A model generated the notes under the pieces. The model was not told where the DNA came from. It ran no database searches and saw only the letters and a program-made list of their open reading frames with translations. Below are positions 555 to 15,481 of a stretch of DNA of 64,000 bases, piece by piece. The translations under genes were made by a program, and so were the position numbers. Origin of the DNA: Terriglobia bacterium (GTDB lineage Bacteria; Acidobacteriota; Terriglobia; JAJPHL01). Every line of letters begins with the position of its first letter. Position 1 is the first letter of the stretch. The stretch covers positions 145,193 to 209,192 of the forward strand of contig CAVVEL010000022.1 of NCBI GenBank assembly GCA_963747095.1, given 5' to 3'.

Positions 555-1902
555 CGGGCGCCTTCTTGAATGGATAGCGGGTGTCGAATCTCGACTTGGT
601 AATGAGACCCCTCTTACAAAGGACCTCTATCACCGTCTTGACGACAAAGGATCTGAACACTTGTCCTACGTACGTTTCATCAACCTCAATGAGAGGTCCC
701 TGGTCGGCGGACTGAGCGCCGGAACCATTACAAGCGATTTTTTGGATCACCTGATAGACCAACTTTATGGCGGGGGAAGAGCAGAGGAGATTTGGAGACC
801 ATGTCATTCCTGCTCGGCGCAGGATCGTTGCCAAGTCTTCAGAGCAACAAGGATCTTTGCTCCAGGGGAAGCGCGTACAGTTTCGAAGGATGCGAGTTCC
901 CGTGCGCGGGAGCGACTTTTCGAGGCCCTCCGCGCGGTCCACTTGTCTGGCGAAACGCACGTCACAGTGCGAGAACTGCGCGCGACGCTCGTCTATGTTC
1001 TCTTCGGCCTTCACTTCTGTGACGACTACCATGGCGAATCTGACATACCCGTGTTCCCATATTGGGATCGTACATTTTCCCCGGCTTCACCCAGGAGGCA
1101 AGGTGAGGTCTTAAGAGAACTGGCTCGCTTTGATCCAGGTCTCGAAGCACATCCCCAGATTGACCGCTACTTACTTGGGAGGCCGAGTCCGGAAAGTAGC
1201 AAGACGGCTCCCCAGTATGGCCAACTTTCTCTCCAGTCTGCTCGGCGTCGGGCCTTCTTCGAATGGACTGAAGAACACTGTGAGCAGGTGGCGGCGGACC
1301 GCCACGGCCTTGGTCTGGCGCGAGGACGCCATTTGCGGCTCTTCCGAGATCTGTGTCTGCCGGACGCCGCATCAGAAGCAAAGGATCTTTGCGCTAGGCT
1401 TTGCGCAGGCGTTTCGCGCCTGGAAGACCTTCCGCAAGAGGCGTTCGAGCGGCCCAATGTAGTCCCGCTCCGTATTACTCCGCGCACTCCAATCGAGACC
1501 GCCTTCTGGGTAGAAAAGCCGCTATCCTCCTTCCGCCTTGAGGCTGCGATACCAGCAGAGACAGGGTCGGATCGACTTCACCGGCAAGCGCTGCTAATTT
1601 ATCAATACCGAGATGGAAATGAAGAGTGCCTTGAACTTGGCGCTGAGCTCTTCCACCTCCTGTTGGAGTTGAGCGAGGGCTATCAGCTCGGAGATGTCTC
1701 TACTGACGACACGTTCGCTCACCTCTCGATTTTCGTCCAACGCCTCGTCCGTGAAGACGAACGGGAAATGATGGCCTGGAATCCCATTCAAGATGATCTG
1801 GTCTACAAGATTTCCGTCCAGACCAACACCGAAGACGGCTCTACGCGACAAAAGATCGTGGTCACCCATGGTGCGAAGGGAGGAGCAGATGCCCTCCGAT
1901 AG
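436..1902 (+). CDS. Hypothetical protein (488 aa as called); likely C-terminal continuation of the P-loop NTPase via a frameshift between 433 and 554
   Basis: This frame opens at nt 433 just after a TGA. The called start is only a TTG. The sequence is protein-like throughout and has no domain I can name. Confidence 0.45.
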   Translation: MTVPQPGKAVRRMTLLDSFLEKFQQGPPAEDLVHLLAINDGRLLEWIAGVESRLGNETPLTKDLYHRLDDKGSEHLSYVRFINLNERSLVGGLSAGTITSDFLDHLIDQLYGGGRAEEIWRPCHSCSAQDRCQVFRATRIFAPGEARTVSKDASSRARERLFEALRAVHLSGETHVTVRELRATLVYVLFGLHFCDDYHGESDIPVFPYWDRTFSPASPRRQGEVLRELARFDPGLEAHPQIDRYLLGRPSPESSKTAPQYGQLSLQSARRRAFFEWTEEHCEQVAADRHGLGLARGRHLRLFRDLCLPDAASEAKDLCARLCAGVSRLEDLPQEAFERPNVVPLRITPRTPIETAFWVEKPLSSFRLEAAIPAETGSDRLHRQALLIYQYRDGNEECLELGAELFHLLLELSEGYQLGDVSTDDTFAHLSIFVQRLVREDEREMMAWNPIQDDLVYKISVQTNTEDGSTRQKIVVTHGAKGGADALR

Positions 1903-2932
1903 CGGTCGCGCGATTGTTGATCAGTTGCTTGGTCGAGAGATGACTAGGGAGATTTGGACTGGCAATTACTTGAAGGCCCTACCCATCTCAGTGCAGGACT
2001 TCGACCTTTCCGCAGTGCTGCCAGCAGTCTTCTACATGTTTCGCTTCGGTCATCGCAGGGGCCAGGGCAAGTTTCTCGAGGTTTTTGGCTCGGGCGCCAG
2101 TACTTCAAAGGAGCGGAAACGTGCCGCAACAATAGAGCGTGTGGCGTCAACGCTAGGCACAACTGATGGCTTTGAAGGCTTTCGAAGCGAGCCGGAACAG
2201 GCCATTCTTGGCGATCTGCTCCTCTGCTTCTGCCTTGAGAACGCGAAGCGCGCTCTCGGGCGAAAGGAACAAATCCAGCGAGTTGCACCGGCTCACTACA
2301 TGGCGGCTTGGGTGGATTTACCCGAGTCGGTCTCTCACCTTCGCTATGTGCCCGAAATGATTGTAGCAATGCTTGCCGATCAAAAGGGTAGCTACATAGA
2401 GCATAACCAAGAGGGAGACCGGACGCACTTTGCCGTCGGTCGAGGCTTCGAAAGAAACCTCCTGCTTCGGGCGTTTCACCAAGGAGTGACGCGTCGCGGA
2501 GAGCTCAGCAGTCGCACATCGGATAAGTTCGAAGAAGAAACGCTCGTTGGGTTAGATCAATTGTTGATGATTCGTTTGGCGCAGCACCTGGGCGAAGCAC
2601 CGGTGAAGCTACGCGGAAGCGAAGGGGAACGAATCTCAAACCAGCACCCGGTTGCAGAAAAGGCAGCGCAGAATTTCTCCGAGGATTTGCGTCGGTTCGT
2701 CCGCGCGTACGCCGGTGTCGTTCCGCGGCATGCCTTTGTGGAGCTATTGGAATCCTGTCTGGCGATTGGCGTCACTACCATTATCACGAGCGTGATCGAA
2801 CTCCTTTGCGACTGGGCAGAGACTGGGACGATTCGAAAAAAATGTGAACAGCGACCTCCTCGCCTTTTCGTGGACTGTTCAAACGGTGTTCAACAGCCGC
2901 TTGCGAGCCTTGGCCGAACAGTCTTTGGGTGA
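1793..2932 (+). CDS. Hypothetical protein (likely start ATG ~1889, 4-nt overlap with the upstream stop); possibly fused with 2844..3710
   Basis: Long ORF in operon context. The last ~30 aa ('KKCEQRPPRLFVDCSNG...') look out of frame. An A7 homopolymer at 2836-2842 lies exactly where the next ORF's frame opens. Confidence 0.45.
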   Translation: MIWSTRFPSRPTPKTALRDKRSWSPMVRREEQMPSDSGRAIVDQLLGREMTREIWTGNYLKALPISVQDFDLSAVLPAVFYMFRFGHRRGQGKFLEVFGSGASTSKERKRAATIERVASTLGTTDGFEGFRSEPEQAILGDLLLCFCLENAKRALGRKEQIQRVAPAHYMAAWVDLPESVSHLRYVPEMIVAMLADQKGSYIEHNQEGDRTHFAVGRGFERNLLLRAFHQGVTRRGELSSRTSDKFEEETLVGLDQLLMIRLAQHLGEAPVKLRGSEGERISNQHPVAEKAAQNFSEDLRRFVRAYAGVVPRHAFVELLESCLAIGVTTIITSVIELLCDWAETGTIRKKCEQRPPRLFVDCSNGVQQPLASLGRTVFG

Positions 2933-3710
2933 CTTCCTTCGGCAAATAGAACGTTTCCCGGTCATCTTGATGGCCGTCCGATTGTTAGACAGGGGTGCAC
3001 GTTATGATCGCCGTGTCAAAGCGCTAAACGTCTCAACGGGACCTTATGCGACAACGTGGCTCAACCTCTTAGGAGAGTTGCTTCATAGTAGGCGCCTAGA
3101 GTCAGACGCGATTCTCTATGATTTGGCGGGCAAGGCTGAGGAGTTGGCGGAGAGGTTGGAGGACGACTACCCAGAATGTGCGCAGATGTTGCGAAACGAA
3201 CAAAGCCAACCGAACCCAGTCTGGCGCCTAGCAGAATCACTCACCTCGCTGCAGGGTCGCGGAAATACCCAGGATAATCTAATCAAGCTACTCGACTCGG
3301 CTCTGTTGCTTGGGCGGCCCAATGGGCTAGCGCTCAAGAGAACGGTTACTCGCAACGTAGCTCAGGCCGGCACTCGAAAGCGAAGCGACCTTCGTTCTCT
3401 CGTGCTAACTGACTCGGTTCTCGACCACTTTGTCCATCTACATGTCTTACCCACGGGTGGCCGCATTGGTGTTCGGTCGCTTTCGTTTCGAGACTTCATC
3501 GCAAAACTCGAAGAGCGATACGGGCTGTGCGTGGATAGCTCTCCGCCCGGGATGACAATCTCCAATGATCAGCTACGGGCGAATCGTGCCATTTTAGAAC
3601 GTCGGCTCCGCGACCTGGGATTGTTGATAGGAGTGAACGATGCGGAAGCCATGAAGCGTCTGCGGCCTCGGTTCGACCCAGTAACGGAGGACACCAATGG
3701 TGTGGAATGA
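2844..3710 (+). CDS. Hypothetical protein (GTG start as called; may be the C-terminal half of the preceding gene)
   Basis: Protein-like ORF +1 relative to the upstream gene. No convincing RBS. The A7 run sits immediately upstream. Confidence 0.45.
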   Translation: MNSDLLAFSWTVQTVFNSRLRALAEQSLGDFLRQIERFPVILMAVRLLDRGARYDRRVKALNVSTGPYATTWLNLLGELLHSRRLESDAILYDLAGKAEELAERLEDDYPECAQMLRNEQSQPNPVWRLAESLTSLQGRGNTQDNLIKLLDSALLLGRPNGLALKRTVTRNVAQAGTRKRSDLRSLVLTDSVLDHFVHLHVLPTGGRIGVRSLSFRDFIAKLEERYGLCVDSSPPGMTISNDQLRANRAILERRLRDLGLLIGVNDAEAMKRLRPRFDPVTEDTNGVE

Positions 3711-4659
3711 AGTGCATGCGCGGGCGCTTCAAGTGGCCTTCGAGAGACTTCTCGGGAGAGCTGACCAGGGTGCCGTTGCCTTTGTCCGTTGTCTAGCGCC
3801 TGAGGTTGTTGAAACGCTCGCCGGCGATTCTTCCTTCGCTCCCCGGGATTGGCAGGTTCGGCGCGTCGCTGATCGCGACCATTCCCAATCGCGGACAATT
3901 ACCGCAGACCGCGCTGTAGAGCTTCGTGAGATGAAGGCGGATGCCGTCCTGCTGTTGGTTGATACAGTCCGGGCAGGAGCCGGTATGGATGGTATCTACA
4001 GCGCCGCCAGAGAGGTCGATGAAGAGACCTTGTTCGGAGAGGCGCTGCGGTTGGCAGGCGAAGAGGTGAGAGCACGGCTATCTGTCAAGCATCGCCGATA
4101 TGCTGAGGAAGCCACAAAGAAGGCCCGTGGTCACGGTCGTCGCCTTAGTGTCTCGGTTTGGACCGAATTTGATTTTTTCTGTCGGATTGCGGCAGAAAGA
4201 AGGCATCCCGGCGAGTTCCTACATTTGCTCGGCTTGTGGCCCGTTTCGGAGTCCTCAGATTTTGGTGAAGAAGAAGGATTGGATCTCTCTCGTCTTTTTG
4301 TTGATCGCTTACTGGGAACATCGGTGTCCGGCATGCCGCCGGCACTACGGGTTGACGCTCTGAGATTGCACAAGCCGTCGGAACAACAGAGGGCGGATCT
4401 CGAAGGGTTCCTGCGCACGGCGTTGACTAGGCCGCTTCTGCCGGCCCTTGCGGATCTCGCGAGCAAGAAACATCTATGGGTCAATGAGGCTCAGAGTGGA
4501 AGGCGCTGCACATTCCATCCAAAGTATCGAGTTGTTGCCTTGGCGTACGAACACGGGGAAAGTCGCTCGGGGGAGTGGGCTGGAAGACGGCGGCGAAGGT
4601 CCTCCGATGCTGATCCTGCGAGCAGACTCGAATCAGAGCGGAGAGTATTCGAAACTTGA
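3697..4659 (+). CDS. Hypothetical protein; Arg-rich junk-like tail after ~4480 suggests it continues into 4448..8704 through a frameshift
   Basis: Start overlaps the upstream stop (ATGxxTGA-type coupling). The tail 'GRRRRRSSDADPASRLESERR' is atypical while the overlapping downstream frame is protein-like. Confidence 0.4.
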   Translation: MVWNEVHARALQVAFERLLGRADQGAVAFVRCLAPEVVETLAGDSSFAPRDWQVRRVADRDHSQSRTITADRAVELREMKADAVLLLVDTVRAGAGMDGIYSAAREVDEETLFGEALRLAGEEVRARLSVKHRRYAEEATKKARGHGRRLSVSVWTEFDFFCRIAAERRHPGEFLHLLGLWPVSESSDFGEEEGLDLSRLFVDRLLGTSVSGMPPALRVDALRLHKPSEQQRADLEGFLRTALTRPLLPALADLASKKHLWVNEAQSGRRCTFHPKYRVVALAYEHGESRSGEWAGRRRRRSSDADPASRLESERRVFET

Positions 4660-7600
4660 AGTGAAGTGGAAAGCGCGACCGGAGAATTTGGAAAAGGGGG
4701 CCGTAGAGTATCGCGTTGTTATTCAAACCGATATGGATGAAGAACTCGCATCGCGTCCTGTGGTGCACTCCGGAAAGCGCGAGGAGCGTTGTAGATTTAG
4801 TGACGATGATTTTTCGACTCTAAGCGATGATGCCCTCATTTCAGCTAAGGTAGTCATTTCTGTCATTGGTAACGCAGCAGTTGAGCCAAGAGAGAGCGAA
4901 GAATTCATCATTCGCTTCGGCGAGCCACCCGATCGAGAGAAGGGAGGAGTCGGGAAGAAGGTCCGCACCTTTAGCGAGGGACTAATCGAGATAGAAAGCC
5001 GAGATCTCGTTTCCGAGATTGCCTCGTCCGTGGAGGTGTATCCCGAGGATTCCAAGGGTTTTGTTCTGATGCGGCCTCAGCGGGGTAAGAGCTTTCGGGT
5101 GTTCCGGCCTCGTTTGGTCGGTGAGGTCGAGAAGCGATGGGTAGATGAGGCGGGAGCGATTGGACGCTGGCGCGTCAAGGTGCGCTCCTCGGGCGCGCGA
5201 GCCGGTGAGGTTGAGTTCGTGCCCTGCTTACCCTCCTCTGCCGCGTTGCAATCTCTCTGGGATCGGACGGTCACCGCTAGTCGTCGCATGGCGGAGCGAT
5301 TCGCTGCGGCGGGCGGCGGCGTCGGTCAGGTCTACGATGAAAAATCAAAAGCTTTTGATTTGGTTGTCAGAGAATACCTTCTTGCGTGGACGGCATTACT
5401 GGATGAGGCGGATCCTTCACTCGCGCTTGCGAATACAGTCGAGGTTCAGTCACTTTCCGGGAGAACCATCGGCTTGATTGTACTCCCGAATCACGCACTT
5501 AGAGTTGCCTGGCTCGTCGGGTACGACAACCTTGTGTTGCATGCGGCTTTCGATCTTAGCAAGCGTCCCAGAGACATTGTAGAAGAGTTCGCGGTGCTTG
5601 ATGGTGCGATGTTTCCAGCGTTCCTACCCGGCCTGGAGCAAGGACATTCGTTCGTTTTTGCGGATACTCTCGGCTTCCATGTTGTCGGAATGGTGCCAGA
5701 TTCCGATAAGGAACCCAAGGCCGCGCTGGCGATCCTTGCCAGAGCGCTCGGAGAGAGCGAGACCGCGGATGCGGCACCAACAATCGGGGCGCAGAGTGCA
5801 ACCGTCCTGGGCAACGAGATTCTCAAATACCTCGACTGTCACAATCCCTCGAGGCTTCTCCATATCCATGCGCTAAGGCCCGGCGATGGTCTAACGGTTG
5901 CGCGGTCACTTGGCAGAGTTCAGGAGCACTATCGGCGGGTCTCAGATGAGGAAGGCATCGATCGGGAGGAGGGGCGGTCGGCCCCTGCGTTTGTGCTAGA
6001 GCTCTACCCGTCCGAAGGGCAGCGGGGAATTGCCGGACGATTTATTGCGGAAGCTCGGGAAAAGCGTCGCAGTGGAGCGGGCGTCTTGTCCATCGATGAC
6101 TATTGGATGCTTGAGTCCCAAGGTCTTCCGGGTGGAGTGAACCTTCCACGGTTACGCTGGGCACGTAAGCGCGAGCAAGATCCTAAGACGCCGGCGCATC
6201 TTGCACTGGCCTTCGACACTTTTGAATCGCGAGTTGTTGTCGAAGCTAGTGGGAGACGACGCGACGCGAGACCGCTCTATGTGTTTGGACTTCTGTCCTT
6301 TTTTGAGCGAGAGTACTCCAGTCTGCCATCACCCGTTTGGCGGAGCGTAATTCTTCCCTCGGGAGATGGCGAGAAGCATCCCTCAGACCGAACGCACACA
6401 GAGCGCCTTCTGCGCTTGCAGCAAGCTGTCCAGAGGGCGGTGGCACGGAATATTGGATCACGGGAAGACTTGCCATTCCTTAGAACCGATATCGCGCCGG
6501 ACAAAGCACAAAACCTAAGGGAGCTTCACCGCCTCTGCGACTGGGTGATCACACTGGATCGTAACGCTGGAGTTGAGTATTTTGATTCTCCCCGCGACAA
6601 TAGGGAGATCTACGATGCTTATGTAATCGACTGCGTCCCGGAGCGTGAGGATCTCGGGTGCCTGCAAATGATCACATCAACGAGTAATCTAGAAGAGGTC
6701 CGGGACCTCCTAGATGATGCGCTCGATCAGATGGGTCTCAGCCGGAGCCGCCGGAATGCGGAATTCTTAATGGACCATTTGAAGGCGCTGAGTGGACGCT
6801 TGGCAATACGCCTGACCGGAGAGAAAACTCCTACCTCAGAGCTGATTGCCTTGGCACTCTGTCACGCAAACTGTCGCAACCATTCGCATGTTAGCGACTG
6901 CTGGGTTTCTCTCGACGCAGGGTTCATTGTTCCCGTGGATGACATTCGCGATCTACTGCCCCCACTGGTTGCGACGGACAGCGACGACGAGAGGGAGTCG
7001 CGACCGGACCTGCTGTATGTTTCCCTGATTCCGAGAAAAGGATTGTTGTTTCGGTTCGTGGAAGTGAAGTATCGCAGACACCTTCGTGGTGCGCGAAGTG
7101 CCGAAGTGTTGCACGGCATCCGCGAGCAGGTGGAACCACTCAGGAAGCGGTGGGAGGATTGGTACGTTGGCGACGAGACTTGCGCGCCGTTCAGCGCAGT
7201 TCGCCGTGCCAAACTGGCGCGAGTCCTACGGTTCTACTCGGACAAGGCACATCGGCACTACTTACTTGATGAACAGTACGAAGCCATAACCGCTGAGATT
7301 GATCGAATGATTGAGAAAGGAGCAACGTACTCCTTTCCTGCAATGGAACGGTCCGACCGCGGATGGGTATTCTGCCCAGAATTCTCGGGCGAAACCCCCC
7401 TCGAGATTTCTCCCAACGATTGGGAAACGCGAATATTCTTGTTTGGCCCTGGCCTCATGCCCGATTCCGACTTTCGGTTTGAGTCGATAGCTCGTCAACC
7501 TGAGGTTGCGGCTTCCGATCCCTCAATGTCGCCTACTCCGCCGCCCGGACCAAGCGAAATGCCGTTGTCTGAGGCGGCTGCTGAAGAAGTTCCCGCGAGA

Positions 7601-8704
7601 GACGACAAACCAGACGACACAGCACAGGGCGGTGCCGAGAACCGTGCGGACGGCGAGCCTAGTTCTCTCTCCCTTGGTACGGACACGCTCACGGGTGCTG
7701 ATGTTCATTGGTCAATTTCAATCAAGGGCAATCCGCATCTCTTGCTTGCCGGCTTGCCTGGGATGGGGAAGACGACCTGCCTCCTGAATCTGTGTAACCA
7801 GATGCTTGCAGCGCAGATCCGTCCGATTGTCTTTTCGTACCATCAGGACATTGACCAGAAGCTCCAAGTGCTCGTGCCCTCCGTCCGGTTCATCGATTTC
7901 CACGGATTGGGCTTCAACCCGTTACAGGTGATCGATCGAGAGTCGAGAGTGGGGTATCTCGACGTAGCAGGGGCACTACGTGATATATTCGTCGCGATCT
8001 TCCCGGAGCTAGGCGATATTCAGGGCGAACGTATCCGGAAGGCCATCAAGGACAGCTTTTCAGAGCTGGGTTGGGACAATCCGAACTCTGTTCTCGCGGA
8101 GTTACAAGAACCGCCTTTCGGGCGATTCGTGGAGATCCTTCGAGGCGATCCAAAACAAGACAAGGGGTTGCGTACGCTGCTTGCGCGTTTAGAGGAGCTG
8201 GAAGATTACTCCTTCTTCGATCTCGGTGAATCTCGGGCGAGCCTGTGGGACAGTAAGGAGCCTATCATCATTCGCGTCCATGCGACTCAAAGCGACAACC
8301 TGCAAAGAGCCTTCGCCTCGTTAGTCTTCTACAGCCTGTATAAGGATATGTTCCGAAGAGGCCTCCAGGAACGTATCACGCATGCCGTAGTATTTGACGA
8401 GGCTCACCGCGCAGCGGGATTGAAGCTAATTCCCACGATGGCAAAAGAGTGTCGGAAGTACGGTATCTCGTTGGTAGTCGCGTCGCAGGAAGCCAAGGAT
8501 TTCAACGCGTCTCTTTTCTCGGCCATCGCAAATTATCTTGTCTTTCGCCTAACAGAGGTTGATGCCAAAGCGCTTGTGCGGAACGTTGCTAGTTCTCAGC
8601 AAGAGCGAGTACTGATCGATAAAATCAAGCAGATGGAGAGGTTCAAGGCACTGTACTTCTGCGAAGGCAAGAGCAGGCCTTCACCCGTAGTCTTAACGCC
8701 TTAG
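4448..8704 (+). CDS. Giant protein (1418 aa; ~1730 aa if fused with the upstream ORF) with a PD-(D/E)xK-like motif and C-terminal HerA/FtsK/VirB4-type P-loop ATPase
   Basis: Walker A 'LLLAGLPGMGKTTCLLNL' and Walker B 'HAVVFDEAHR' followed by 'ISLVVASQE' (AAA_10/DUF87-like arrangement). Roughly 250 aa upstream: 'RPDLLYVSLIPRKGLLFRFVEVKYRR', a PD...(D/E)xK-like pattern. A Pro/Ser/Asp-rich linker precedes the ATPase. Confidence 0.7.
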   Translation: MRISRARNIYGSMRLRVEGAAHSIQSIELLPWRTNTGKVARGSGLEDGGEGPPMLILRADSNQSGEYSKLEVKWKARPENLEKGAVEYRVVIQTDMDEELASRPVVHSGKREERCRFSDDDFSTLSDDALISAKVVISVIGNAAVEPRESEEFIIRFGEPPDREKGGVGKKVRTFSEGLIEIESRDLVSEIASSVEVYPEDSKGFVLMRPQRGKSFRVFRPRLVGEVEKRWVDEAGAIGRWRVKVRSSGARAGEVEFVPCLPSSAALQSLWDRTVTASRRMAERFAAAGGGVGQVYDEKSKAFDLVVREYLLAWTALLDEADPSLALANTVEVQSLSGRTIGLIVLPNHALRVAWLVGYDNLVLHAAFDLSKRPRDIVEEFAVLDGAMFPAFLPGLEQGHSFVFADTLGFHVVGMVPDSDKEPKAALAILARALGESETADAAPTIGAQSATVLGNEILKYLDCHNPSRLLHIHALRPGDGLTVARSLGRVQEHYRRVSDEEGIDREEGRSAPAFVLELYPSEGQRGIAGRFIAEAREKRRSGAGVLSIDDYWMLESQGLPGGVNLPRLRWARKREQDPKTPAHLALAFDTFESRVVVEASGRRRDARPLYVFGLLSFFEREYSSLPSPVWRSVILPSGDGEKHPSDRTHTERLLRLQQAVQRAVARNIGSREDLPFLRTDIAPDKAQNLRELHRLCDWVITLDRNAGVEYFDSPRDNREIYDAYVIDCVPEREDLGCLQMITSTSNLEEVRDLLDDALDQMGLSRSRRNAEFLMDHLKALSGRLAIRLTGEKTPTSELIALALCHANCRNHSHVSDCWVSLDAGFIVPVDDIRDLLPPLVATDSDDERESRPDLLYVSLIPRKGLLFRFVEVKYRRHLRGARSAEVLHGIREQVEPLRKRWEDWYVGDETCAPFSAVRRAKLARVLRFYSDKAHRHYLLDEQYEAITAEIDRMIEKGATYSFPAMERSDRGWVFCPEFSGETPLEISPNDWETRIFLFGPGLMPDSDFRFESIARQPEVAASDPSMSPTPPPGPSEMPLSEAAAEEVPARDDKPDDTAQGGAENRADGEPSSLSLGTDTLTGADVHWSISIKGNPHLLLAGLPGMGKTTCLLNLCNQMLAAQIRPIVFSYHQDIDQKLQVLVPSVRFIDFHGLGFNPLQVIDRESRVGYLDVAGALRDIFVAIFPELGDIQGERIRKAIKDSFSELGWDNPNSVLAELQEPPFGRFVEILRGDPKQDKGLRTLLARLEELEDYSFFDLGESRASLWDSKEPIIIRVHATQSDNLQRAFASLVFYSLYKDMFRRGLQERITHAVVFDEAHRAAGLKLIPTMAKECRKYGISLVVASQEAKDFNASLFSAIANYLVFRLTEVDAKALVRNVASSQQERVLIDKIKQMERFKALYFCEGKSRPSPVVLTP

Positions 8705-8716
8705 CCCAAACACACT

Positions 8717-9991
8717 CTACGCCCCTGCCTCATGTTCGGCTCTGTACATCAGCAACAGCCATTGGCTGAGCTCCAGAGTAAGAGAAGACTCTGTTCTCAA
8801 CACCAGGGCACGGAAATCAAAATCGATATCATCGAGGGAACGTGATGGAGCCTTCGCTTCCTGTACCAAAGCGAGCAGCTCTCCATGATGACCGTGAAGT
8901 AATCCTTTCTCCCGACTGTAGATGCGGCTGCGCCCCCGAAAATTGTACATGGCCTGAATGCCAAAAACGGCGGTCGCTACCGGGGGAAGCGTAATTCCGA
9001 ACAATCCAATAGCGATTGAGGCTATGCTCCCTTCGGCGGCGTCCCCTGCCTCCAAGCCATGATACAGGTGGCAACCGTGGAGAAATGCAACGACGATCGC
9101 GCACAGGAGCGTGAGCTTGAGAAACTGAGAGGCGAATCGTTCGTTCTCTTCGCAGTCGCGCAACTCATTGGCAAACCACAGTAGCTGCTTGCCAAGGCGC
9201 TGGTGGAGATAACACTCCATACGATCTAGGCAGTCAGTGCTCGCTGTCTGCCTGGCGTAAACGTATAGGTGCTCCATCCAAGTCTTCCCACCATAATCTT
9301 GTAATGGGACCAACTCCGAGAGAGCTCCGAAGTCAGTGCCTTCAATCTGTCCTCGTCGCGTTGCCGCCATGCGGGCCGCGGATGACTCATCGTAGCCAAG
9401 ATAGGGACCGACTCCTGCAACCAGCAGATACTGCTCACGGCGCAGAATCTCACATCGGAGTCGATTTCCAATCCATTCCGCAGTAGGCTCTGGCGCGGTC
9501 CATACGAGATACAGAAGAGTCCCTAGACAGAACGCCTCTGAAAGGATGAGGCCAAATGCCCAACCGCCTCCGTGAGGCCAGATAAGAACTTGGAGAGCGA
9601 GCAGGAGAAGCGCAGCCGGCGAAAGAACCGCGGCGCGTATTCCATTGGCGAAGTAATGCCCTTGAGCTTCAACGGCCCGGTTAAGATACTTCCATTGGGC
9701 TTCGTGAAGATGCTTTCCACCTCCGAACGCCTCCGGCTTGCGGACGCCTGTAGGTATGCTTAAGTCGTGGGCGGGAAACTGCTCCCGTCGCTTCGTTCTG
9801 CGCTCGTAGGACGCGCTCCTCTGCCAAAAATAGATCTCCTGCGAAAGCCAGAGCGCAAGGAGGAATACAAGAGGAGAGAACACCACCTGAGCCCAGGATG
9901 CAGATGCGCGAACCCCGGTGGCCAGTGCACCGACGAGGAGCACTGCACCCAAAGCAATTCGTTGCTTGTTTGTTGACTGAGCGAGCATCAT
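8717..9991 (-). CDS. 6-TM membrane protein built from three 'amphipathic helix + 2 TM' units; SLATT-like (speculative)
   Basis: Hydrophobic pairs at roughly aa 12-52, 108-158 and 288-345, separated by charged helical segments with W/Y/R/E-rich motifs ('RCEILRREQYLL', 'YNFRGRSRIYSREKGLL'). Last gene of the signalling operon, 45 nt after the REC-AlbA_2 gene. Confidence 0.5.
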   Translation of the reverse strand: MMLAQSTNKQRIALGAVLLVGALATGVRASASWAQVVFSPLVFLLALWLSQEIYFWQRSASYERRTKRREQFPAHDLSIPTGVRKPEAFGGGKHLHEAQWKYLNRAVEAQGHYFANGIRAAVLSPAALLLLALQVLIWPHGGGWAFGLILSEAFCLGTLLYLVWTAPEPTAEWIGNRLRCEILRREQYLLVAGVGPYLGYDESSAARMAATRRGQIEGTDFGALSELVPLQDYGGKTWMEHLYVYARQTASTDCLDRMECYLHQRLGKQLLWFANELRDCEENERFASQFLKLTLLCAIVVAFLHGCHLYHGLEAGDAAEGSIASIAIGLFGITLPPVATAVFGIQAMYNFRGRSRIYSREKGLLHGHHGELLALVQEAKAPSRSLDDIDFDFRALVLRTESSLTLELSQWLLLMYRAEHEAGA

Positions 9992-10036
9992 CGACCTTGC
10001 GTCCTAAAACACTCTAGCCAAGATTCTTCGACTTGG

Positions 10037-10909
10037 TTATCCCCATCTCGTCTTGCAGTACTCGATTGCCTCCCGCGTAGACAACTGTCGGGTTGAGTTC
10101 CCCGCTCGAATATACAGGTGCTCGCCGCCGCTCCCATCGGGAACGAAGACAGCTCTCCGCGCTGGTCTTGCGGACGCGCGGCACACATCACTACCCTCCA
10201 CGTTTTCGAAGTCGATTCCAATCAGTGGGCTGATGTCCTTTCCAAAAGCCCCGAGCAAGAGTGTCACGAGGAAATTTTCGAAACCGTCTCTGTCTTGTTT
10301 TTTGAGGGTCTTATAGTCATTCTCCAGGCCGACCACGTGACCGCTGTCATCAACCCCAATCAGCAGGAAGCCACCCTCAGAGTTCAGGAATGCTGCTACG
10401 GTCTTGACAATAACGACCTCCAACTCGTGATTTATCTTCTTAAGCCGTACATCCCAGCGAGCCGAAGTCTTAAACTCCAGTCCAGTGCTCTCACCTCTCT
10501 TGATCATCACAGAGACTGGTTCTTCGGGTAGCTTATTCAACGCCTTTCTTACTCGCGCTTGGAGCTCGTTGACGAGATCTTTCTTGCCCTTCGAAATGTA
10601 GTCGAAGGCGCCCACCTTCATACTCTCGACAGCATCTTCAAGCTCCGCGAAACCAGTGAGAATGATCCCTCGTAGGTCAGGCAATGTCTCTCGCAAACGG
10701 CCAAGCAGTGCAATACCAGACACTTCACTCGAAATTCGTTGATCGAGAATCGCGAGGGAAAAGTGCTCTGCCCGCGCCATTGCTTCTGCCTCTCTTGGAT
10801 CCGTTGTAACATGCAATTCATACTCACTCCCAAGCATGTCTTGGATTGTCTCGAGCCATGACTGCTGGTCGTCCACCACCAAGATCCGATGCCTATGCAT
10901 ACAAATCAC
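10037..10909 (-). CDS. Response regulator: N-terminal REC domain fused to AlbA_2 (Schlafen-like) domain
   Basis: REC: 'ILVVDDQQSWLETI...LAILDQRI...ILTGF'. AlbA_2 signature 'ESTGLEFKTS...VKTVAAFLNSEGGFLLIGVDDSGHVVGLE'. 4-nt overlap with the upstream gene. Confidence 0.75.
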   Translation of the reverse strand: MICMHRHRILVVDDQQSWLETIQDMLGSEYELHVTTDPREAEAMARAEHFSLAILDQRISSEVSGIALLGRLRETLPDLRGIILTGFAELEDAVESMKVGAFDYISKGKKDLVNELQARVRKALNKLPEEPVSVMIKRGESTGLEFKTSARWDVRLKKINHELEVVIVKTVAAFLNSEGGFLLIGVDDSGHVVGLENDYKTLKKQDRDGFENFLVTLLLGAFGKDISPLIGIDFENVEGSDVCRASARPARRAVFVPDGSGGEHLYIRAGNSTRQLSTREAIEYCKTRWG

Positions 10910-12165
10910 TCTCCACGACTTCGGTCAGAACTGAGTGTCTGGACCAGTCTTGTGAAGCCATCTCGCTTGAAAAGATCGGTGTATTGGAATCTACTGAAGG
11001 GCTGGCCGCCTTCGCAATCGTCAAGCCGAGCGATGAGGAAGTAAACAGAACCCTCCCGCATGCCATCCTGGCGATCAAGGGCCTGCCTGACCTCCCGACG
11101 AATGACACCTTCCTTGCCAACGGAGTTATTCGATAGGAAGAAAACGAAATAGTCGGACTGTGCTATAGCCCTCCGAATCGCAGGCTCCCATTCTCCCGCA
11201 AGGATACTCTTGACGTCCATCCAAGGTAGAAAGCCCTCTCCTGTTAGCTTCTCGAAAATATGAGATACCCTGATACGATCTGTCTTCTCATAAGAGAGAA
11301 ACACTCGTATCGGCATTGCATGATCGGCGAGAACCCTCGTCACAGCCTCGTGGAGAGTCTTGAGATCCCCCTTGGAGACGTAGTCCAGGGCTCCTCTCCT
11401 GCCGCCCTCGAGTGCGCTCTTGTAGTCTGGCTGTCCCGTAAGGATGATCGCTCGGAGATTGGGCGCGGCCTTGCGCATCTTACTGAGGACATCGAGACCA
11501 TTGACGCCACCGCCCAAAATCATGTCAAGAACGACGAGGGCGAAACGCTCTTTCTTCAGGCGACGGTAGGCCTCCTCGTGGCTCGTTGTCAACGTTAGCT
11601 CGAACTCAGGCTCCAATACCTGCGAGATTGTGTCGAGCCAGGCCTGTTCATTGTCAACAACAAGTAAGTGTTTCCTCCCACGTCGCGCGCTCTTGGGCGT
11701 GGCACCTTGGCGGGTATCGATCTTCAGTTCACGACTAGTGGCACTCGGCGTTTCGATAAGCGGCTTCGGTGGAATCGCCGCGATTGATTGGACGTCAGAA
11801 ATGGCTTCCGTGAAGGCGCTCGTAATCTCTGCCCAATCTATTGGGTTCTTTTTGAGATATCTAAAGGCACCCAATCCCTCCGCCTCAACTTCCGTCTTGG
11901 CCTCCGGAAGTCCTGTCAAAATGATCACTTTCCCCAAAGGGCGCCGTATCGACCTTGCCCGGCGAAGAATCTCAATGCCGGACATATCGGGAAGCATTAG
12001 ATCCAAAAAAATAACGTCAAACTGCTTGGCCGCTATCAGGTCCAACGCGGTTGCCCCATCCTCCGCCTCCGAAACGACGCATTCAAATTCCACAAGGATC
12101 TCCCGCAGAGTCAGCCGAGCGACCTTCCGATCCTCCACAATCAGTACCTGGGCCGCCCTCGTCAT
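10906..12165 (-). CDS. Response regulator with tandem REC domains and C-terminal TIR domain
   Basis: REC1 'VLIVEDRKVARLTL...VIFLDLMLPDMSG', REC2 'LLVVDNEQAWLDTI...LVVLDMILGGGVNG'. TIR: 'IRVFLSYEKTDRIRVSHIFEKL...WMDVKSILAGEWEPAIRRAIAQSDYFVFFLSNNSVGKEGVIRREV'. Confidence 0.8.
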   Translation of the reverse strand: MTRAAQVLIVEDRKVARLTLREILVEFECVVSEAEDGATALDLIAAKQFDVIFLDLMLPDMSGIEILRRARSIRRPLGKVIILTGLPEAKTEVEAEGLGAFRYLKKNPIDWAEITSAFTEAISDVQSIAAIPPKPLIETPSATSRELKIDTRQGATPKSARRGRKHLLVVDNEQAWLDTISQVLEPEFELTLTTSHEEAYRRLKKERFALVVLDMILGGGVNGLDVLSKMRKAAPNLRAIILTGQPDYKSALEGGRRGALDYVSKGDLKTLHEAVTRVLADHAMPIRVFLSYEKTDRIRVSHIFEKLTGEGFLPWMDVKSILAGEWEPAIRRAIAQSDYFVFFLSNNSVGKEGVIRREVRQALDRQDGMREGSVYFLIARLDDCEGGQPFSRFQYTDLFKRDGFTRLVQTLSSDRSRGE

Positions 12166-12911
12166 GTGGCTCCGCCCACAAGGGGAACCGTAATGATAAA
12201 CGAGGCTCCTCTTCCGAACTCACTCTCAACCCTGATCTTGCCGCCAATGAAATCAAGCTGAGTTCGAACTAGCCATAATCCTAAACCGCTGCCTTCAACT
12301 TTCGTCGTAAAGTCCGGTTCGAAAATTCTCCCCTGATCCTCTAGCTTAATGCCTGGTCCATTGTCCTTGATCTCCACGGCCGCACAGCCAACCCATCCAC
12401 CTACTCCCTTCGATGTAGTCACCGTAACTACACCTCTCCTCGTACTCTGTAGCGCCTGGTATGCGTTGATAATGATATTTCTAATTAGTTGAGTAAACTG
12501 AGTACGATACACCTCGCATACGAGGGGTGTCTCGCAGGGAAACACCTTTAACTTCACTGCCTGGGCGTTCTCCAAATGAGACAAGTCGAGTGCCTCCATC
12601 GCATCGCGTACTACTTCATTAATGTCTAGCGGCCCCTTGTCTCCCATGCGATTGGGTGCCAAACCAGCAACCTTATTAGCAAATTCCGTTGCCTGGTTTG
12701 CCGCATCCTGAATAAGTGACAGCTTTCGATCAATTCGTTCGTTCGCCACGCCAATTAACTTTCTTATCCCAATTACATTCGCCGGAATCAATCCGGAAGT
12801 ATTGTTGATTTCGTGAGCCACTGCCCTGACCAGCAAGGACAGATTGGCGTTTCTGTCGGCAATGGCCACAAGCCTGTCATTGGCCACCTTGTACATTTGA
12901 GCATTCTCCAC
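12162..12911 (-). CDS. HisKA+HATPase_c histidine kinase module; almost certainly the C-terminal part of 12877..14991 (one REC-GAF3-HK gene split by a 1-nt indel)
   Basis: H-box 'VRAVAHEINN', G-boxes 'IKDNGPGI', 'GSGLGLWLV'. Upstream of the called start the same frame reads 'ADYVGVAVENAQMYKVANDRL', the canonical GAF C-terminus. Confidence 0.75.
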   Translation of the reverse strand: MENAQMYKVANDRLVAIADRNANLSLLVRAVAHEINNTSGLIPANVIGIRKLIGVANERIDRKLSLIQDAANQATEFANKVAGLAPNRMGDKGPLDINEVVRDAMEALDLSHLENAQAVKLKVFPCETPLVCEVYRTQFTQLIRNIIINAYQALQSTRRGVVTVTTSKGVGGWVGCAAVEIKDNGPGIKLEDQGRIFEPDFTTKVEGSGLGLWLVRTQLDFIGGKIRVESEFGRGASFIITVPLVGGAT

Positions 12912-14991
12912 AGCGACGCCAACATAGTCCGCAAAGGTCCTGAAGAGACTCGAGATCGGCCTCGCAGTAGCGCAGATCGTCCCCGACCTTGTTAATGACC
13001 TTCATCGCACCCACGGTCTTGTCCTTTGCGACTATAGGGACCACCATAAGCGAATCAATATTTCGGATCTCTTTATGCTTCTTCTTCAAGAACGCGCAGA
13101 TTATGTTGTCATACTTGCCATCGTTCTCCTGCGGCGATACTTGAAGCCACGCTCTACCCGTATGGGCAACGGATCCAGTAACACCTTCACCCATGTTATA
13201 GAACGCACCAGTTATCATGGGCATGCCATATGATTGCCTCAATACTATCCTGCCTTCACTGTCGCGCAGGAACAACATACAAATCTCAGCCTGCATTACT
13301 TTCGCCATTTGCTCAATGGTCACCGCCAGGACGTCTTCAATATTCAGTGCCGAACTAATCACCCGCCCAACTTCACCGAGAGAGCGTAGTTGCTCCACTT
13401 GAAGTTCTTTCTCCTTGACCAATTCCGCGTTGCTGATTGCAACGGCGAGATGGCTAGCGGTGATCTCGAGCGCATTTCGGCAGTCACCGCTGAAACCGCG
13501 TTCGAGGAGGCAGTGAAAATCCTGATGGGGCGGGACCCGACCGTAATGCTTCGATTTCTTATTCATCGCACGCAAGACGCCCCGCACCTGATCACCTATC
13601 CGTATCGGCACGCCCAGATAATGAGCCACTTTCCTCGACGGAATATTGTCCAGATAACCCTCTTTTCCGGTGTGATCATACCGCTTGTCCTCCAACGGTG
13701 TCACACGGACGGAGGCCTTAGGATCCGGGAGCTGGATCGTCTCCTGATTCTTAAACACAGCACCAACCAAGCTCTCTCCCGGTCGATAAAACTCTGACGG
13801 TGTCTCGACACGTCTCCCGCCACGGAACTCCGCTACATTCTCGATCACTTGGGTGAGTTCGTTGTAAAGAAAGATAGAAATTACTTCCGGATGCACGATC
13901 GCTGAGATGCCTTGGATAACAGCTGTGTAAATCTGCGGAATGACGTCCGGCCCTTTTAGCCGGCCAATCTTGTTTAACATTTCGCTGATTTGGCTGTAGT
14001 CTCGGTGAATCTCGCCCCGGATCCTCTGCAGCCATGCCTTCGTGAGCGTCAGAGCCGCTAGAGTAACGAACTCACTTACAATACTGGCGCGTTGATCGTC
14101 GAAAAAGGCAACACGGTCTGCGCTGACATTGATCACGGCGTTAACAGCTTGGCCGAAGAGACCGGTGGTGATGGGAATGATATACGCGGAGCGAGCCCGT
14201 TGTAGGTAGAGGCGTTGGGCTGGGGGCGTGGCCTGGTCGGAGAGGGCGGCATCCGCGACCTTCCTGAAATTCACGTCCTTCTGCAAGTCACGGATGTTTG
14301 CAGGACTTCCCGTCTCGACAACTCCTCCGGAAAATGGGTCGCCTTTTGCCTTTGGGAGGGTAAACATCTGGCGCTGAGCTTCGTCTGTACCAGCAAACCC
14401 GCCCAGGCGATAATCCCCATACTCCAGGTCGTACACCCGTATGTGACAGGTGTACGCGCCAACGGTTGATCTAACAGCCGTGCAGATCTCATCGAGAATC
14501 GCCTCGATCTTCTCGTTGGCGCTGATCTTCTGCTGTACATCCAAGAGCAGACGAAGCTTGCGGTTGACCTGTTCCCTCTCGAGATCTTTGAAGGCTTGGT
14601 CTACAGAGAAGCGCAGGGCTTCAGTCCCCGTTTTTGGGAGATAGTTGAAGATCTTATATTCGCCTGCACGTTCGGCCGGCAGGCGACTCTCGTGACCTGT
14701 CAATACGATTACTCTGTATTCAGCCGAACGGTCCTTAATAGCTTCGAGAATGGCGGTACCGGCAACTGTTCCGAGAGACTCAAAGGAGAGGTCGAGTAGA
14801 ATTACTCGAATCTCCGGCTGGTCTCGTAAGATCGCGATACCTTCGTCGGGCGATTCAGCTTCAATGAACGTATAGTTGTCATTCCGGAAAAGATGCTTAA
14901 CCGTCTCACGCGATAACAGTTCATCGTTGACTAGCAGTACGGCTCTACTCATGTTAGTGCTTGCCCCCACATTTGATGATTTCCTGGTCAA
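12877..14991 (-). CDS. REC + three GAF domains (N-terminal part of a hybrid REC-GAF3-histidine kinase)
   Basis: REC 'VLLVNDELLSRETV...VILLDLSF'. Three GAF-like blocks. The last 18 aa ('CGLCWRRCGECSNVQGGQ') are out-of-frame junk. A frame switch at ~12945-12950 (extra T in 'cttt') restores 'LESLQDLADYVGVAVENAQMY'. Confidence 0.75.
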   Translation of the reverse strand: MTRKSSNVGASTNMSRAVLLVNDELLSRETVKHLFRNDNYTFIEAESPDEGIAILRDQPEIRVILLDLSFESLGTVAGTAILEAIKDRSAEYRVIVLTGHESRLPAERAGEYKIFNYLPKTGTEALRFSVDQAFKDLEREQVNRKLRLLLDVQQKISANEKIEAILDEICTAVRSTVGAYTCHIRVYDLEYGDYRLGGFAGTDEAQRQMFTLPKAKGDPFSGGVVETGSPANIRDLQKDVNFRKVADAALSDQATPPAQRLYLQRARSAYIIPITTGLFGQAVNAVINVSADRVAFFDDQRASIVSEFVTLAALTLTKAWLQRIRGEIHRDYSQISEMLNKIGRLKGPDVIPQIYTAVIQGISAIVHPEVISIFLYNELTQVIENVAEFRGGRRVETPSEFYRPGESLVGAVFKNQETIQLPDPKASVRVTPLEDKRYDHTGKEGYLDNIPSRKVAHYLGVPIRIGDQVRGVLRAMNKKSKHYGRVPPHQDFHCLLERGFSGDCRNALEITASHLAVAISNAELVKEKELQVEQLRSLGEVGRVISSALNIEDVLAVTIEQMAKVMQAEICMLFLRDSEGRIVLRQSYGMPMITGAFYNMGEGVTGSVAHTGRAWLQVSPQENDGKYDNIICAFLKKKHKEIRNIDSLMVVPIVAKDKTVGAMKVINKVGDDLRYCEADLESLQDLCGLCWRRCGECSNVQGGQ

Positions 14992-15481
14992 GCACGTCGT
15001 AGTCCAACGGTTTATTGACGAAGCCCTCGCCGAGCTGCAGAGATCTTTCGATGTTATACGGAGTGTTATCTGCGGATATGAAGATAACTGGCGTGTTAAA
15101 TCCTTGCGCTCGCATCATCTCACATACCTCGAACCCATTCCTTTCTGGCATCTTGATGTCTAGGAGAACAAGGTCAATGGCATCCGTACCGCCCATGATA
15201 TCGAGCGCCATGTCTCCGCCTTCGGCCTCAGCAACGTCGGCGCCATATTGTTGAGAAAGCCAAACGGCGAGAGCAGTGCGAAAAATGTCAGTGTCATCCA
15301 CAATCAGTATCCGGCGCAGCCACGGGATCCTATGACGGATGAGGGCATCATCTACGAAAGGCGGGTCAATAGGAGTATTGGAACCGTCTCCCTCCGCACC
15401 GTTCGCAAGAACAAAGTGAAACGCTGGAATATTCACCACGATTGTAAGACCCATGAATTTGGGGGGCGCAAAAGTCGTCAA
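14954..15481 (-). CDS. Single-domain response regulator (REC)
   Basis: 'RRILIVDDTDIFRTALAVWL...LVLLDIKMPERNGFEVC...PVIFISA'; stop overlaps the downstream start. Confidence 0.7.
   Translation of the reverse strand: MTTFAPPKFMGLTIVVNIPAFHFVLANGAEGDGSNTPIDPPFVDDALIRHRIPWLRRILIVDDTDIFRTALAVWLSQQYGADVAEAEGGDMALDIMGGTDAIDLVLLDIKMPERNGFEVCEMMRAQGFNTPVIFISADNTPYNIERSLQLGEGFVNKPLDYDVLDQEIIKCGGKH

What the first reader, a model, noticed from the sequence alone, without database searches (positions are those of the whole stretch)
8717..9991. Terminal membrane protein with three SLATT-like 'helix + 2 TM' units
Three repeats: an amphipathic W/Y-rich helix, then two TM helices, then a charged R/E/Y-rich segment ('RCEILRREQYLL', 'YNFRGRSRIYSREKGLL'). 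This is the architecture described for SLATT effector domains, and the gene sits at the 3' end of the TIR/Schlafen operon. If correct it would be an unusual triple-SLATT pore-like effector.
Basis: inference. Interest (0 to 1): 0.6.

Follow-up and report, generated by a model that had tools for sequence, protein, structure and literature searches.

The report
TIR-linked double-SLATT membrane effector gene
The gene encodes a six-helix membrane protein that is a divergent relative of the two-SLATT-domain "ThsH" pore-type effectors of TIR-based (type VII Thoeris) immunity, not a triple SLATT. In this genome it sits behind a TIR/Schlafen operon under two-component control, and that operon lacks it in the other genomes examined.

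Summary
The ORF (8717-9991, minus strand, 424 aa) is real and conserved, with 408 representative relatives. It has six hydrophobic helices arranged as three hairpins, and the quoted motifs are present.

Only two of the three units are SLATT-like. Residues ~92-205 match DUF4231/SLATT_3 and residues ~254-416 match SLATT_1. The window protein scores below threshold, but relatives score above Pfam's cut-offs. The N-terminal hairpin (1-85) has no SLATT signal, has no preceding helix, and is absent from most relatives.

This DUF4231/SLATT_3 + SLATT_1 tandem is the architecture of the SLATT gene that sits next to a ThsB 90% identical to a validated type VII Thoeris ThsB (bioRxiv 10.64898/2025.12.03.692087). 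The family profile aligns to that protein colinearly, though weakly (30.7 bits). So "unusual triple SLATT" is not supported. The protein is a 6TM variant of a known double-SLATT effector.

A TIR-domain gene lies adjacent or nearby in 18 independent loci, fused to WD40, TPR, STAND, kinase, SIR2 or REC modules.

The window's HK/REC/REC-GAF-HK/REC-REC-TIR/REC-Schlafen cassette recurs in four other genomes and ends without a SLATT gene there. The coupling here is therefore a single case and is inferred.

The likely mechanism is a membrane-permeabilising effector gated by a TIR-made, ADP-ribose-derived signal.

Interest is moderate to low: a new variant of a known kind.

The parts
8717..9991 (-). 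Gene for a 424-aa, 6TM protein of the ThsH-like double-SLATT family
   Evidence: ORF. 408 representative relatives at E<=1e-3. pLDDT 84.
9737..9991 (-). Residues 1-85: accessory N-terminal TM hairpin (TM1 ~12-30, TM2 ~31-54) followed by a basic, aromatic-rich tail. Not SLATT by any test.
   Evidence: No SLATT hit in segment scans. Poorly conserved. Absent in most relatives. hhalign to unit 3 gives probability 4-9%.
9377..9718 (-). Residues ~92-205: first SLATT unit (DUF4231/SLATT_3 type). It comprises a cytoplasmic helix, TM3, TM4 and the conserved helix W173-x3-R177...RREQY.
   Evidence: DUF4231 hits. Aligns to the SLATT_3 unit of ThsH-like proteins.
9233..9376 (-). Residues ~206-253: cytoplasmic linker with the conserved GPY, R212/R213 and W238 positions
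   Evidence: Alignment A1. Short helices in the model.
8744..9232 (-). Residues ~254-416: second SLATT unit (SLATT_1 type). It comprises the helix with R265/Q269/FANELRD, TM5, TM6 (LPP motif), the YNFRGRSR motif and two C-terminal helices.
   Evidence: NCBIfam SLATT_1 covers model 1-129/132 on residues 261-412. Pfam SLATT_1 hits.
10037..10909 (-). Upstream gene: REC + Schlafen/AlbA_2 (290 aa). Its stop lies 45 nt before the SLATT start.
   Evidence: Response_reg 64.4 bits, SLFN_AlbA_2 61.5 bits
10906..12165 (-). REC-REC-TIR (419 aa), the candidate signal generator. The TIR glutamate at the position of the catalytic Glu of TIR NADases is conserved (E358 by my count).
   Evidence: Response_reg x2 135.9 bits, TIR_2 67.8 bits. 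TIR alignment. 4-nt overlaps with both neighbouring genes.
12162..14991 (-). REC-GAF-GAF-histidine kinase, here split into two ORFs (12877-14991 and 12162-12911) by a frameshift
   Evidence: Pfam. The 930-aa L016 orthologue aligns in frame -2 and then frame -3.
14954..15481 (-). Single-domain receiver protein
   Evidence: Response_reg 80.4 bits
15478..18216 (-). Histidine kinase (GAF-PAS-HATPase), first gene of the cassette. An N-terminal membrane region is inferred from the hydrophobic N-terminal sequence and from the weak 6TM_PilS hit of the L016 orthologue.
   Evidence: Pfam GAF, PAS and HATPase_c. Sequence. L016 orthologue.

Best explanation
The ORF encodes an inner-membrane effector of the TIR-associated double-SLATT family. 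This is the family of ThsH, the effector of type VII Thoeris. Its conserved core is two different SLATT-clan domains in tandem: a DUF4231/SLATT_3-type unit followed by a SLATT_1-type unit. Each unit is a TM hairpin held between cytoplasmic helices rich in conserved R/E/Y/W residues. This subclade adds a third, non-SLATT TM hairpin at the N-terminus.

By analogy with ThsH and the CBASS SLATT effectors, the cytoplasmic helices would bind a small ADP-ribose-derived nucleotide made by a neighbouring TIR enzyme. The protein would then oligomerise and breach or depolarise the membrane, stopping growth of the cell.

In this genome the nearest TIR is REC-REC-TIR, two genes upstream in the same transcription direction. 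It belongs to a cassette driven by a two-component phosphorelay. The proposed chain is: kinase signal, then REC phosphorylation, then TIR activation, then nucleotide signal, then SLATT opening. REC-Schlafen would act as a parallel output.

Shown here: the domain identity, the topology, the family membership and the recurrent TIR neighbourhood. Inferred: ligand gating, pore formation, and the coupling to this particular TIR.
For: Domain identity:
- Family-wide hits to DUF4231 and SLATT_1, some above the Pfam cut-offs.
- A family HMM aligns colinearly across both units of a ThsH-type protein: HMM 86-368 against ThsH 39-288, 30.7 bits, E 9e-12 for a single comparison. hhalign gives E 1.5e-4.
- That ThsH-type protein is itself SLATT_3/DUF4231 + SLATT_1. 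It sits directly after a ThsB 90% identical to the validated Pseudohongiella ThsB.

Known biology: type VII Thoeris (TIR + SLATT) defends against phage, and exogenous cADPR is toxic to cells carrying it (paper 10.64898/2025.12.03.692087).

TIR neighbourhood:
- Adjacent to the SLATT gene, or one to two genes from it, in the window and in L001, L002, L004, L005, L008, L010, L011, L019, L023, L027, L028, L031, L032, L035 and L038.
- About 4 kb away in L009 and L040.
- TIR_2 scores above cut-off wherever Pfam was run. The metagenome loci rest on a local TIR HMM.

Topology and fold. Arrangement on the same strand with a 45-nt gap.
Against: - The window protein itself scores below every curated SLATT threshold.
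- The link to ThsH is weak: 30.7 bits would be only marginal in a database-wide search, and hhalign probability is 52%.
- PADLOC models give no hit.
- The HK/REC/REC-GAF-HK/REC-REC-TIR/REC-SLFN cassette occurs in four other genomes without any SLATT gene.
- None of 24 metagenome loci of the SLATT family contains a REC domain. The REC-TIR/SLATT pairing is therefore seen only once.
- The hybrid kinase of the cassette is frameshifted in this window.
- Two other TIR genes lie within 16 kb.
- L029 and L030 (the same locus on two contigs) have no TIR within 3-6 kb.
- No solved structure or structural match supports the pore model.
Confidence: 0.65

Rival explanations
1. Triple-SLATT effector: all three hairpins are SLATT units, giving an unusual three-domain pore former.
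For: Three hairpins are each followed by a basic, aromatic-rich segment. There is a faint resemblance between TM2 plus its tail and TM6 plus its tail (P-x..-R-x2-Y-x-[WF]-x-R pattern; hhalign E 0.004-0.009).
Against: - Unit 1 gives no SLATT-clan hit in any member tested.
- It lacks the N-terminal cytoplasmic helix.
- It is the least conserved region.
- It is absent or replaced in 80 of 113 full-length representatives.
- hhalign probabilities are 4-9%.
Confidence: 0.07
2. The protein is a SLATT effector but is not coupled to the upstream REC-REC-TIR. It would be a separate insertion between two defence modules. It would serve another TIR of the island (Pkinase-TPR-TIR at 24168-27524 or TIR-AAA_16 at 19062-19955), or it would be an orphan whose own TIR partner was lost.
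For: - The cassette lacks a SLATT gene in four other genomes.
- The closest SLATT homologues pair with TIR-TM-WD40 or TIR-TPR, not with REC-TIR.
- The Pkinase-TIR next to the distant homologue in L004 has a TIR domain 52% identical to that of the window's Pkinase-TPR-TIR. The L009 TIR is 34% identical to the window's TIR-AAA_16.
Against: In most informative loci the partner TIR is the immediately adjacent gene. Here the only TIR within 9 kb is REC-REC-TIR, on the same strand. There is a 45-nt gap to the preceding gene and no predicted promoter or terminator.
Confidence: 0.25
3. The protein is an ordinary membrane protein or transporter module unrelated to immunity. Foldseek's best PDB matches are transmembrane domains of ABC exporters.
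For: Top Foldseek PDB hits are ABC exporter TMDs at E 0.01-0.1.
Against: Those matches have TM-scores of 0.13-0.19 and rmsd of about 30 A, so they are not meaningful. No transporter family hit was found. The SLATT profile hits and the TIR neighbourhood are consistent across the family.
Confidence: 0.03

Closest known systems
ThsH, the SLATT effector of type VII Thoeris (bioRxiv 10.64898/2025.12.03.692087)
   Same: Both have the tandem DUF4231/SLATT_3 + SLATT_1 architecture with four core TM helices. A colinear profile alignment covers both units and the linker. Both are encoded next to TIR-domain genes.
   Different: - Sequence similarity is very low (30.7 bits).
- The window protein has an extra N-terminal TM hairpin and a longer inter-unit linker (424 vs 294 aa).
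- Partner TIRs are of the TIR_2 type and are fused to sensor or regulatory modules (REC-REC, TM-WD40, TPR, STAND, kinase, SIR2). They are not stand-alone ThsB_TIR proteins.
- Response to cADPR and phage defence are untested.
SLATT effectors of CBASS and of reverse-transcriptase systems (DRT10/UG17, AbiA, RADAR accessory). SLATT was defined by Burroughs et al. 2015 (cited from my own knowledge; paper not held).
   Same: Same domain clan. Same predicted role as a nucleotide-signal-responsive membrane effector.
   Different: No CD-NTase/SMODS or reverse transcriptase was found among the neighbouring ORFs scanned. The DRT10 SLATT belongs to the SLATT_5 family, and those effectors are described with 2-3 TM helices. 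This protein is a two-domain SLATT_3/SLATT_1 type.
TIR + 2TM SLATT gene pairs in the NTPase-centred conflict systems of multicellular bacteria (Kaur et al. 2020, PMC7159879) and in phages (Iyer et al. 2022, PMC9503650)
   Same: SLATT genes accompany TIR and other nucleotide-processing effectors that are fused or linked to STAND, WD40 or TPR-type sensors. This matches the relatives' neighbourhoods.
   Different: Those papers do not describe a two-component (REC-REC-TIR) input or the 6TM variant in the passages I read.

Membership tests
SLATT clan (Pfam SLATT_1..6, DUF4231; NCBIfam NF033634) | Match to a SLATT-clan profile at or above the curated cut-off | tested here: inconclusive
   The window protein is below the cut-offs: SLATT_1 17.8/26.3 bits, DUF4231 15.1/24.7 bits, NF033634 22.4/41 bits. 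Homologous family members pass: P0114 SLATT_1 42.9, P0109 DUF4231 37.4, P0095 34.8 and 30.3. All 21 close homologues hit both families.
SLATT clan | A TM hairpin flanked by conserved cytoplasmic helices on both sides | tested here: met
   Met for unit 2 (helix 92-117, TM3/TM4, helix 171-192) and for unit 3 (helix 254-287, TM5/TM6, helices to 416). Unit 1 lacks the N-terminal helix.
SLATT clan | Genomic association with enzymes that generate nucleotide signals (SMODS, SLOG, TIR) | tested here: met
   A TIR_2 gene is adjacent or nearby in 18 independent loci. One family member has a weak N-terminal SLOG (YAcAr) hit.
ThsH / type VII Thoeris | Effector with tandem SLATT_3(DUF4231) + SLATT_1 domains | tested here: met
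   Segment scans place DUF4231 on unit 2 and SLATT_1 on unit 3. ThsH-type proteins in L012 and L014 show the same order. The alignment is colinear.
ThsH / type VII Thoeris | Two-gene operon with a stand-alone TIR (ThsB) directly adjacent | tested here: not met
   In the window the TIR is fused to two REC domains, sits in a multi-gene two-component cassette, and is separated from the SLATT gene by REC-Schlafen. The cassette lacks a SLATT gene in four other genomes.
ThsH / type VII Thoeris | TIR produces canonical cADPR on infection, and cADPR triggers effector toxicity | not testable with these tools
   This needs LC-MS of TIR products and toxicity assays with added cADPR, as in paper 10.64898/2025.12.03.692087.
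ThsH / type VII Thoeris | Protects against phage | not testable with these tools
   The only evidence is context. The window is a defence island with an Ssp/Dnd-like module, a type I restriction R subunit and further TIR genes.
CBASS 2TM/SLATT effector | A CD-NTase (SMODS) gene in the same operon | tested here: not met
   No SMODS hit among the ORFs scanned between 0.4 and 27.5 kb. The rest of the window was not scanned for it.

The most novel reading that the evidence does not exclude
A Thoeris-like pathway gated by a phosphorelay. A sensor kinase cascade (GAF-PAS kinase, single REC, REC-GAF hybrid kinase) phosphorylates REC-REC-TIR. This switches on synthesis of an ADP-ribose-derived second messenger, which opens the 6TM double-SLATT protein. 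REC-Schlafen is activated in parallel. TIR immune signalling would then be controlled by two-component signal transduction rather than by direct sensing of phage. The extra N-terminal hairpin would tune membrane insertion or oligomerisation.
Probability: 0.2. Interest if true: 0.7.

Novelty: new variant of a known kind. Interest (0 to 1): 0.38.

Why it matters
The result turns a "possible triple-SLATT" into a defined object: a divergent, mostly soil-metagenome subfamily of the ThsH-type double-SLATT effectors. The named members are Acidobacteriota and Actinomycetota MAGs or genomes. Many members carry an extra TM hairpin.

Their TIR partners are not small ThsB proteins. They are TIRs fused to WD40, TPR, STAND, kinase, SIR2 or receiver domains. 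This extends the TIR-SLATT (type VII Thoeris) logic to sensor-fused TIRs.

The more interesting by-product is the conserved cassette of two-component system, REC-REC-TIR and REC-Schlafen. It suggests TIR enzymes under phosphorelay control, which I did not find described in the literature searched. The window offers a natural case where that cassette has acquired a membrane effector. This makes the idea testable with three or four cloned genes.

Tried and rejected
- Internal-repeat detection with hhalign on sub-alignments of 17-132 sequences gave only weak, out-of-register TM matches. I do not call the protein a repeat protein.
- Foldseek against PDB and BFVD gave no meaningful match. The best PDB hits were ABC-exporter TMDs with TM-score <0.2, and a viral SLATT protein appeared only at E=1.
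- PDB sequence searches with the family profile and with ThsH found nothing.
- PADLOC found nothing for the SLATT protein.
- The promoter/terminator scan of 8400-10400 found no promoter. It found one plus-strand terminator-like hairpin inside the gene, fewer than the mean of 1.9 in shuffled sequence.
- The genome-contig scan with the family alignment returned only 4 loci because it depends on peptide patterns.
- Burroughs et al. 2015 could not be read, so statements about the original SLATT definition rest on later papers and on my own knowledge.
- The first literature search was swamped by "slatted floor" papers.

Full report
**1. The object**

The ORF is at 8717..9991 on the minus strand (ATG start, 424 aa). 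Its start lies 45 nt downstream of the stop of a REC-Schlafen gene. A weak AAGG lies just upstream of the ATG. Its stop lies 12 nt from the stop of a convergent 1418-aa DndH/HerA-like gene. No sigma-70-like promoter and no minus-strand terminator was found in 8400-10400.

**2. Check of the observation**

Kyte-Doolittle analysis gives six hydrophobic segments paired into three hairpins: 12-30/31-54, 117-138/145-163 and 286-308/322-345. The short connecting loops have no Lys/Arg. The long loops carry 10-14 Lys/Arg each, so the N- and C-termini and all long loops should be cytoplasmic. The hydrophobic clustering exceeds every one of 500 shuffles.

The AlphaFold2 model, built on a 21-sequence alignment, is confident (pLDDT 84, pTM 0.80). 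It is entirely helical, with very long helices that run from cytoplasmic segments straight into the membrane (92-136, 254-314, 323-380).

The two quoted motifs are present and are among the best conserved positions of the family: R177, E181, R184-R185-E186, Q187, Y188, and Y349, F351, R354, Y358.

The first hairpin starts about 10 residues from the N-terminus, so it has no preceding helix. None of the three units can be shown to be a repeat of another (hhalign probabilities 22-28%, 4-9% and <1%).

**3. What the units are**

The window protein alone gives only sub-threshold matches. Pfam SLATT_1 scores 17.8 bits and DUF4231 scores 15.1 bits. NCBIfam SLATT_1 scores 22.4 bits but covers almost the whole model, on residues 261-412.

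The family context settles the question.
- 21 homologues (31-58% identity) all hit both models.
- An exhaustive profile search finds 408 representative clusters, 130 of them below 1e-30.
- Divergent members pass Pfam's cut-offs for both DUF4231 and SLATT_1, always in that order.
- When the units are scanned separately, unit 2 matches only DUF4231, unit 3 matches only SLATT_1, and unit 1 matches nothing related.

Among 113 full-length representatives, 33 have the aligned N-terminal hairpin and 65 are 4TM core-only proteins. The remaining 15 carry other N-terminal extensions. Some of these are unrelated TM hairpins and some are ~200-aa soluble domains, one with a weak SLOG/YAcAr hit.

The conserved entity is thus a 4TM double SLATT. 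The window protein belongs to a 6TM subclade.

**4. Relation to a characterised system**

A December 2025 preprint defines type VII Thoeris as a TIR protein (ThsB) plus a SLATT effector (ThsH). In that work canonical cADPR is the signal, exogenous cADPR is toxic to cells carrying the system, and an AlphaFold3 model shows a membrane-spanning oligomer with basic pockets between protomers.

I searched with the published TIR sequence of the validated Pseudohongiella ThsB and recovered ThsB proteins 83-90% identical. The genes directly following them encode 294-aa proteins. These are SLATT_3/DUF4231 (residues 12-163, 146 bits) + SLATT_1 (residues 167-288, 112.7 bits).

The double SLATT is therefore the normal ThsH architecture, not an oddity.

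An HMM built from the window protein plus about 150 relatives aligns to this ThsH-type protein colinearly, from the first TM hairpin to the C-terminal helix (HMM 86-368, ThsH 39-288). The score is 30.7 bits, E 9e-12 for a single comparison. Shared landmarks are W-x3-R-x2-E after the first hairpin, the PY motif in the linker, R-x3-Y-x3-R-I-x2-Q before the second hairpin, and the terminal E..W. hhalign with the smaller alignment gives E 1.5e-4 and probability 52%.

This is real but distant homology. I file the protein as a divergent relative of ThsH, not as a ThsH orthologue.

**5. Gene neighbourhoods of the SLATT family**

A TIR_2 gene is present beside the SLATT gene in nearly every informative locus.
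- TIR-TM-WD40 lies immediately upstream in L001 and L005 (97.7 and 102.8 bits).
- SIR2-TIR with nSTAND-WD40 lies two genes away in L002.
- Pkinase-TIR is convergent and adjacent in L004.
- TIR-TPR, TIR-STAND-HEAT and a 426-aa TIR protein lie immediately downstream in L008, L010 and L011.
- A TIR protein lies 4 kb away in L009.

In 24 further metagenome loci, a local TIR HMM finds an adjacent TIR in L019, L022 (the same contig as L005), L023, L027, L028, L031, L032, L035 and L038. It finds one 4 kb away in L040. L029 and L030 (one locus on two contigs) have none despite 3-6 kb on both sides. The remaining contigs are too short or end at the gene.

Named sources are Acidobacteriota (Sulfotelmatobacter, Bryobacteraceae) and Actinomycetota (Streptosporangiaceae, Streptomyces adonidis).

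The partner TIR domains are very diverse, as are the three validated type VII ThsBs.

**6. The window's operon**

The operon runs from 18216 down to 10037 with 4- to 38-nt overlaps between genes. The genes, in order, are:
- a GAF-PAS histidine kinase;
- a single REC protein;
- a REC-GAF-GAF kinase;
- REC-REC-TIR;
- REC-Schlafen/AlbA_2.

REC-REC-TIR has about 50 full-length relatives. In all four neighbourhoods examined, the same five-gene cassette is present and ends at REC-Schlafen. What follows is unrelated: opposite-strand hypothetical genes, UvrA or a PKD protein. The SLATT family HMM finds nothing in the three loci for which DNA was available. Conversely, no REC domain occurs in any of the 24 metagenome SLATT loci.

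The SLATT gene is therefore a lineage-specific addition to a conserved two-component/TIR/Schlafen cassette. Its functional coupling to that cassette is an inference from position alone.

Two caveats weaken the inference.
- The hybrid kinase is split by a frameshift in this window. The 930-aa orthologue aligns in two frames.
- Two other TIR genes lie nearby: TIR-AAA_16 at 19062-19955 and Pkinase-TPR-TIR at 24168-27524. Each resembles a TIR found near SLATT relatives elsewhere (52% and 34% identity).

**7. Mechanism**

- Shown: topology, two SLATT-clan domains, family conservation, and TIR association.
- From established knowledge: TIR domains with the conserved catalytic Glu cleave or cyclise NAD. 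That Glu is present here (alignment). SLATT effectors in CBASS, Thoeris VII and DRT10 are the toxic membrane component.
- Inferred: the conserved Arg/Glu/Tyr/Trp-rich cytoplasmic helices (RREQY, FANELRD, YNFRGRSR, R399-x-E401, W411) form the ligand site or the protomer interface. Binding of a TIR product drives oligomerisation and loss of membrane integrity.
- Inferred: in this genome the TIR is switched on by receiver phosphorylation. The N-terminal hairpin is an accessory membrane anchor or oligomerisation element.

**8. Novelty and score**

TIR-SLATT pairing was predicted by the Aravind group and has now been validated experimentally. The double-SLATT architecture is standard for that effector.

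What is new is modest: a 6TM subclade, its pairing with sensor-fused TIRs, and a single instance appended to a phosphorelay-controlled TIR/Schlafen cassette. The cassette itself is the more intriguing item, but it lies outside the finding.

I rate the finding a new variant of a known kind, with interest 0.38.

Noticed in passing
window 10037-18216 (-); L016 2131-10141; L017 142-10154; L018 3166-10096: A five-gene cassette is conserved in at least four other genomes, one of them named as a Thermoanaerobaculia MAG. It comprises a GAF-PAS histidine kinase, a REC protein, a REC-GAF-GAF kinase, REC-REC-TIR and REC-Schlafen/AlbA_2. A TIR and a Schlafen domain under two-component control seems not to be described in the papers I could search.
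   Followed up: partly
window ~12877-12950 (-): The REC-GAF-GAF histidine kinase is split into two overlapping ORFs (12877-14991 and 12162-12911). The single 930-aa orthologue from L016 aligns in frame -2 and then frame -3. This is a frameshift, either real or an assembly error.
   Followed up: yes
proteins P0339 and P0341: These are relatives of REC-REC-TIR in which the TIR domain is replaced by a Schlafen/AlbA_2 domain (REC-REC-SLFN, ~440 aa). This suggests interchangeable output domains on the same receiver scaffold.
   Followed up: no
window 19062-19955 (+): A 297-aa ORF with TIR_2 (36.6 bits) followed by the start of an AAA_16/STAND NTPase. It looks truncated. Its TIR is 34% identical to the TIR found 4 kb from the SLATT relative in L009.
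   Followed up: partly
window 24168-27524 (+): A 1118-aa protein kinase-TPR-TIR protein. Its TIR domain is 52% identical to that of the Pkinase-TIR gene that lies next to the distant SLATT homologue P0021 in L004.
   Followed up: partly
window 20316-23416 (+): The type I restriction R subunit appears split into two overlapping ORFs: HSDR_N + SWI2_SNF2 at 20316-21884 and T1R_D3-like + C-terminal domain at 21758-23416. A YgjP-like metallopeptidase gene follows (23406-24134).
   Followed up: no
window 436-8704 (+): A four- or five-gene module with SspF-, SspG/mad7- and DndH/mad8/HerA-like proteins, i.e. a phosphorothioate-sensing restriction-like module. It is convergent with the SLATT gene, and the two stops are 12 nt apart. 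The whole region is a defence island.
   Followed up: partly
proteins P0087, P0096, P0109, P0114 and P0120: These double-SLATT relatives carry an N-terminal soluble domain of about 190-220 aa with no Pfam match. The one exception is a weak SLOG/YAcAr hit in P0114. The domain may be a fused ligand sensor.
   Followed up: no
L014 572-3053: A ThsB-ThsH pair closely related to the validated Pseudohongiella type VII Thoeris is followed on the same strand by a second, 363-aa TIR_2 protein.
   Followed up: no
JGI contig of P0292 (no DNA available): Downstream of the conserved cassette lies a cluster of further TIR_2 and ThsB_TIR genes plus an LD_cluster (SLOG-like) gene. This is another TIR-rich island.
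   Followed up: no
L029 2995-4189; L030 3021-4215; L037 3-837; L038 1458-2551: In these loci the SLATT family HMM matches in two pieces. This may reflect an insertion, a frameshift or local divergence in the linker of those relatives.
   Followed up: no
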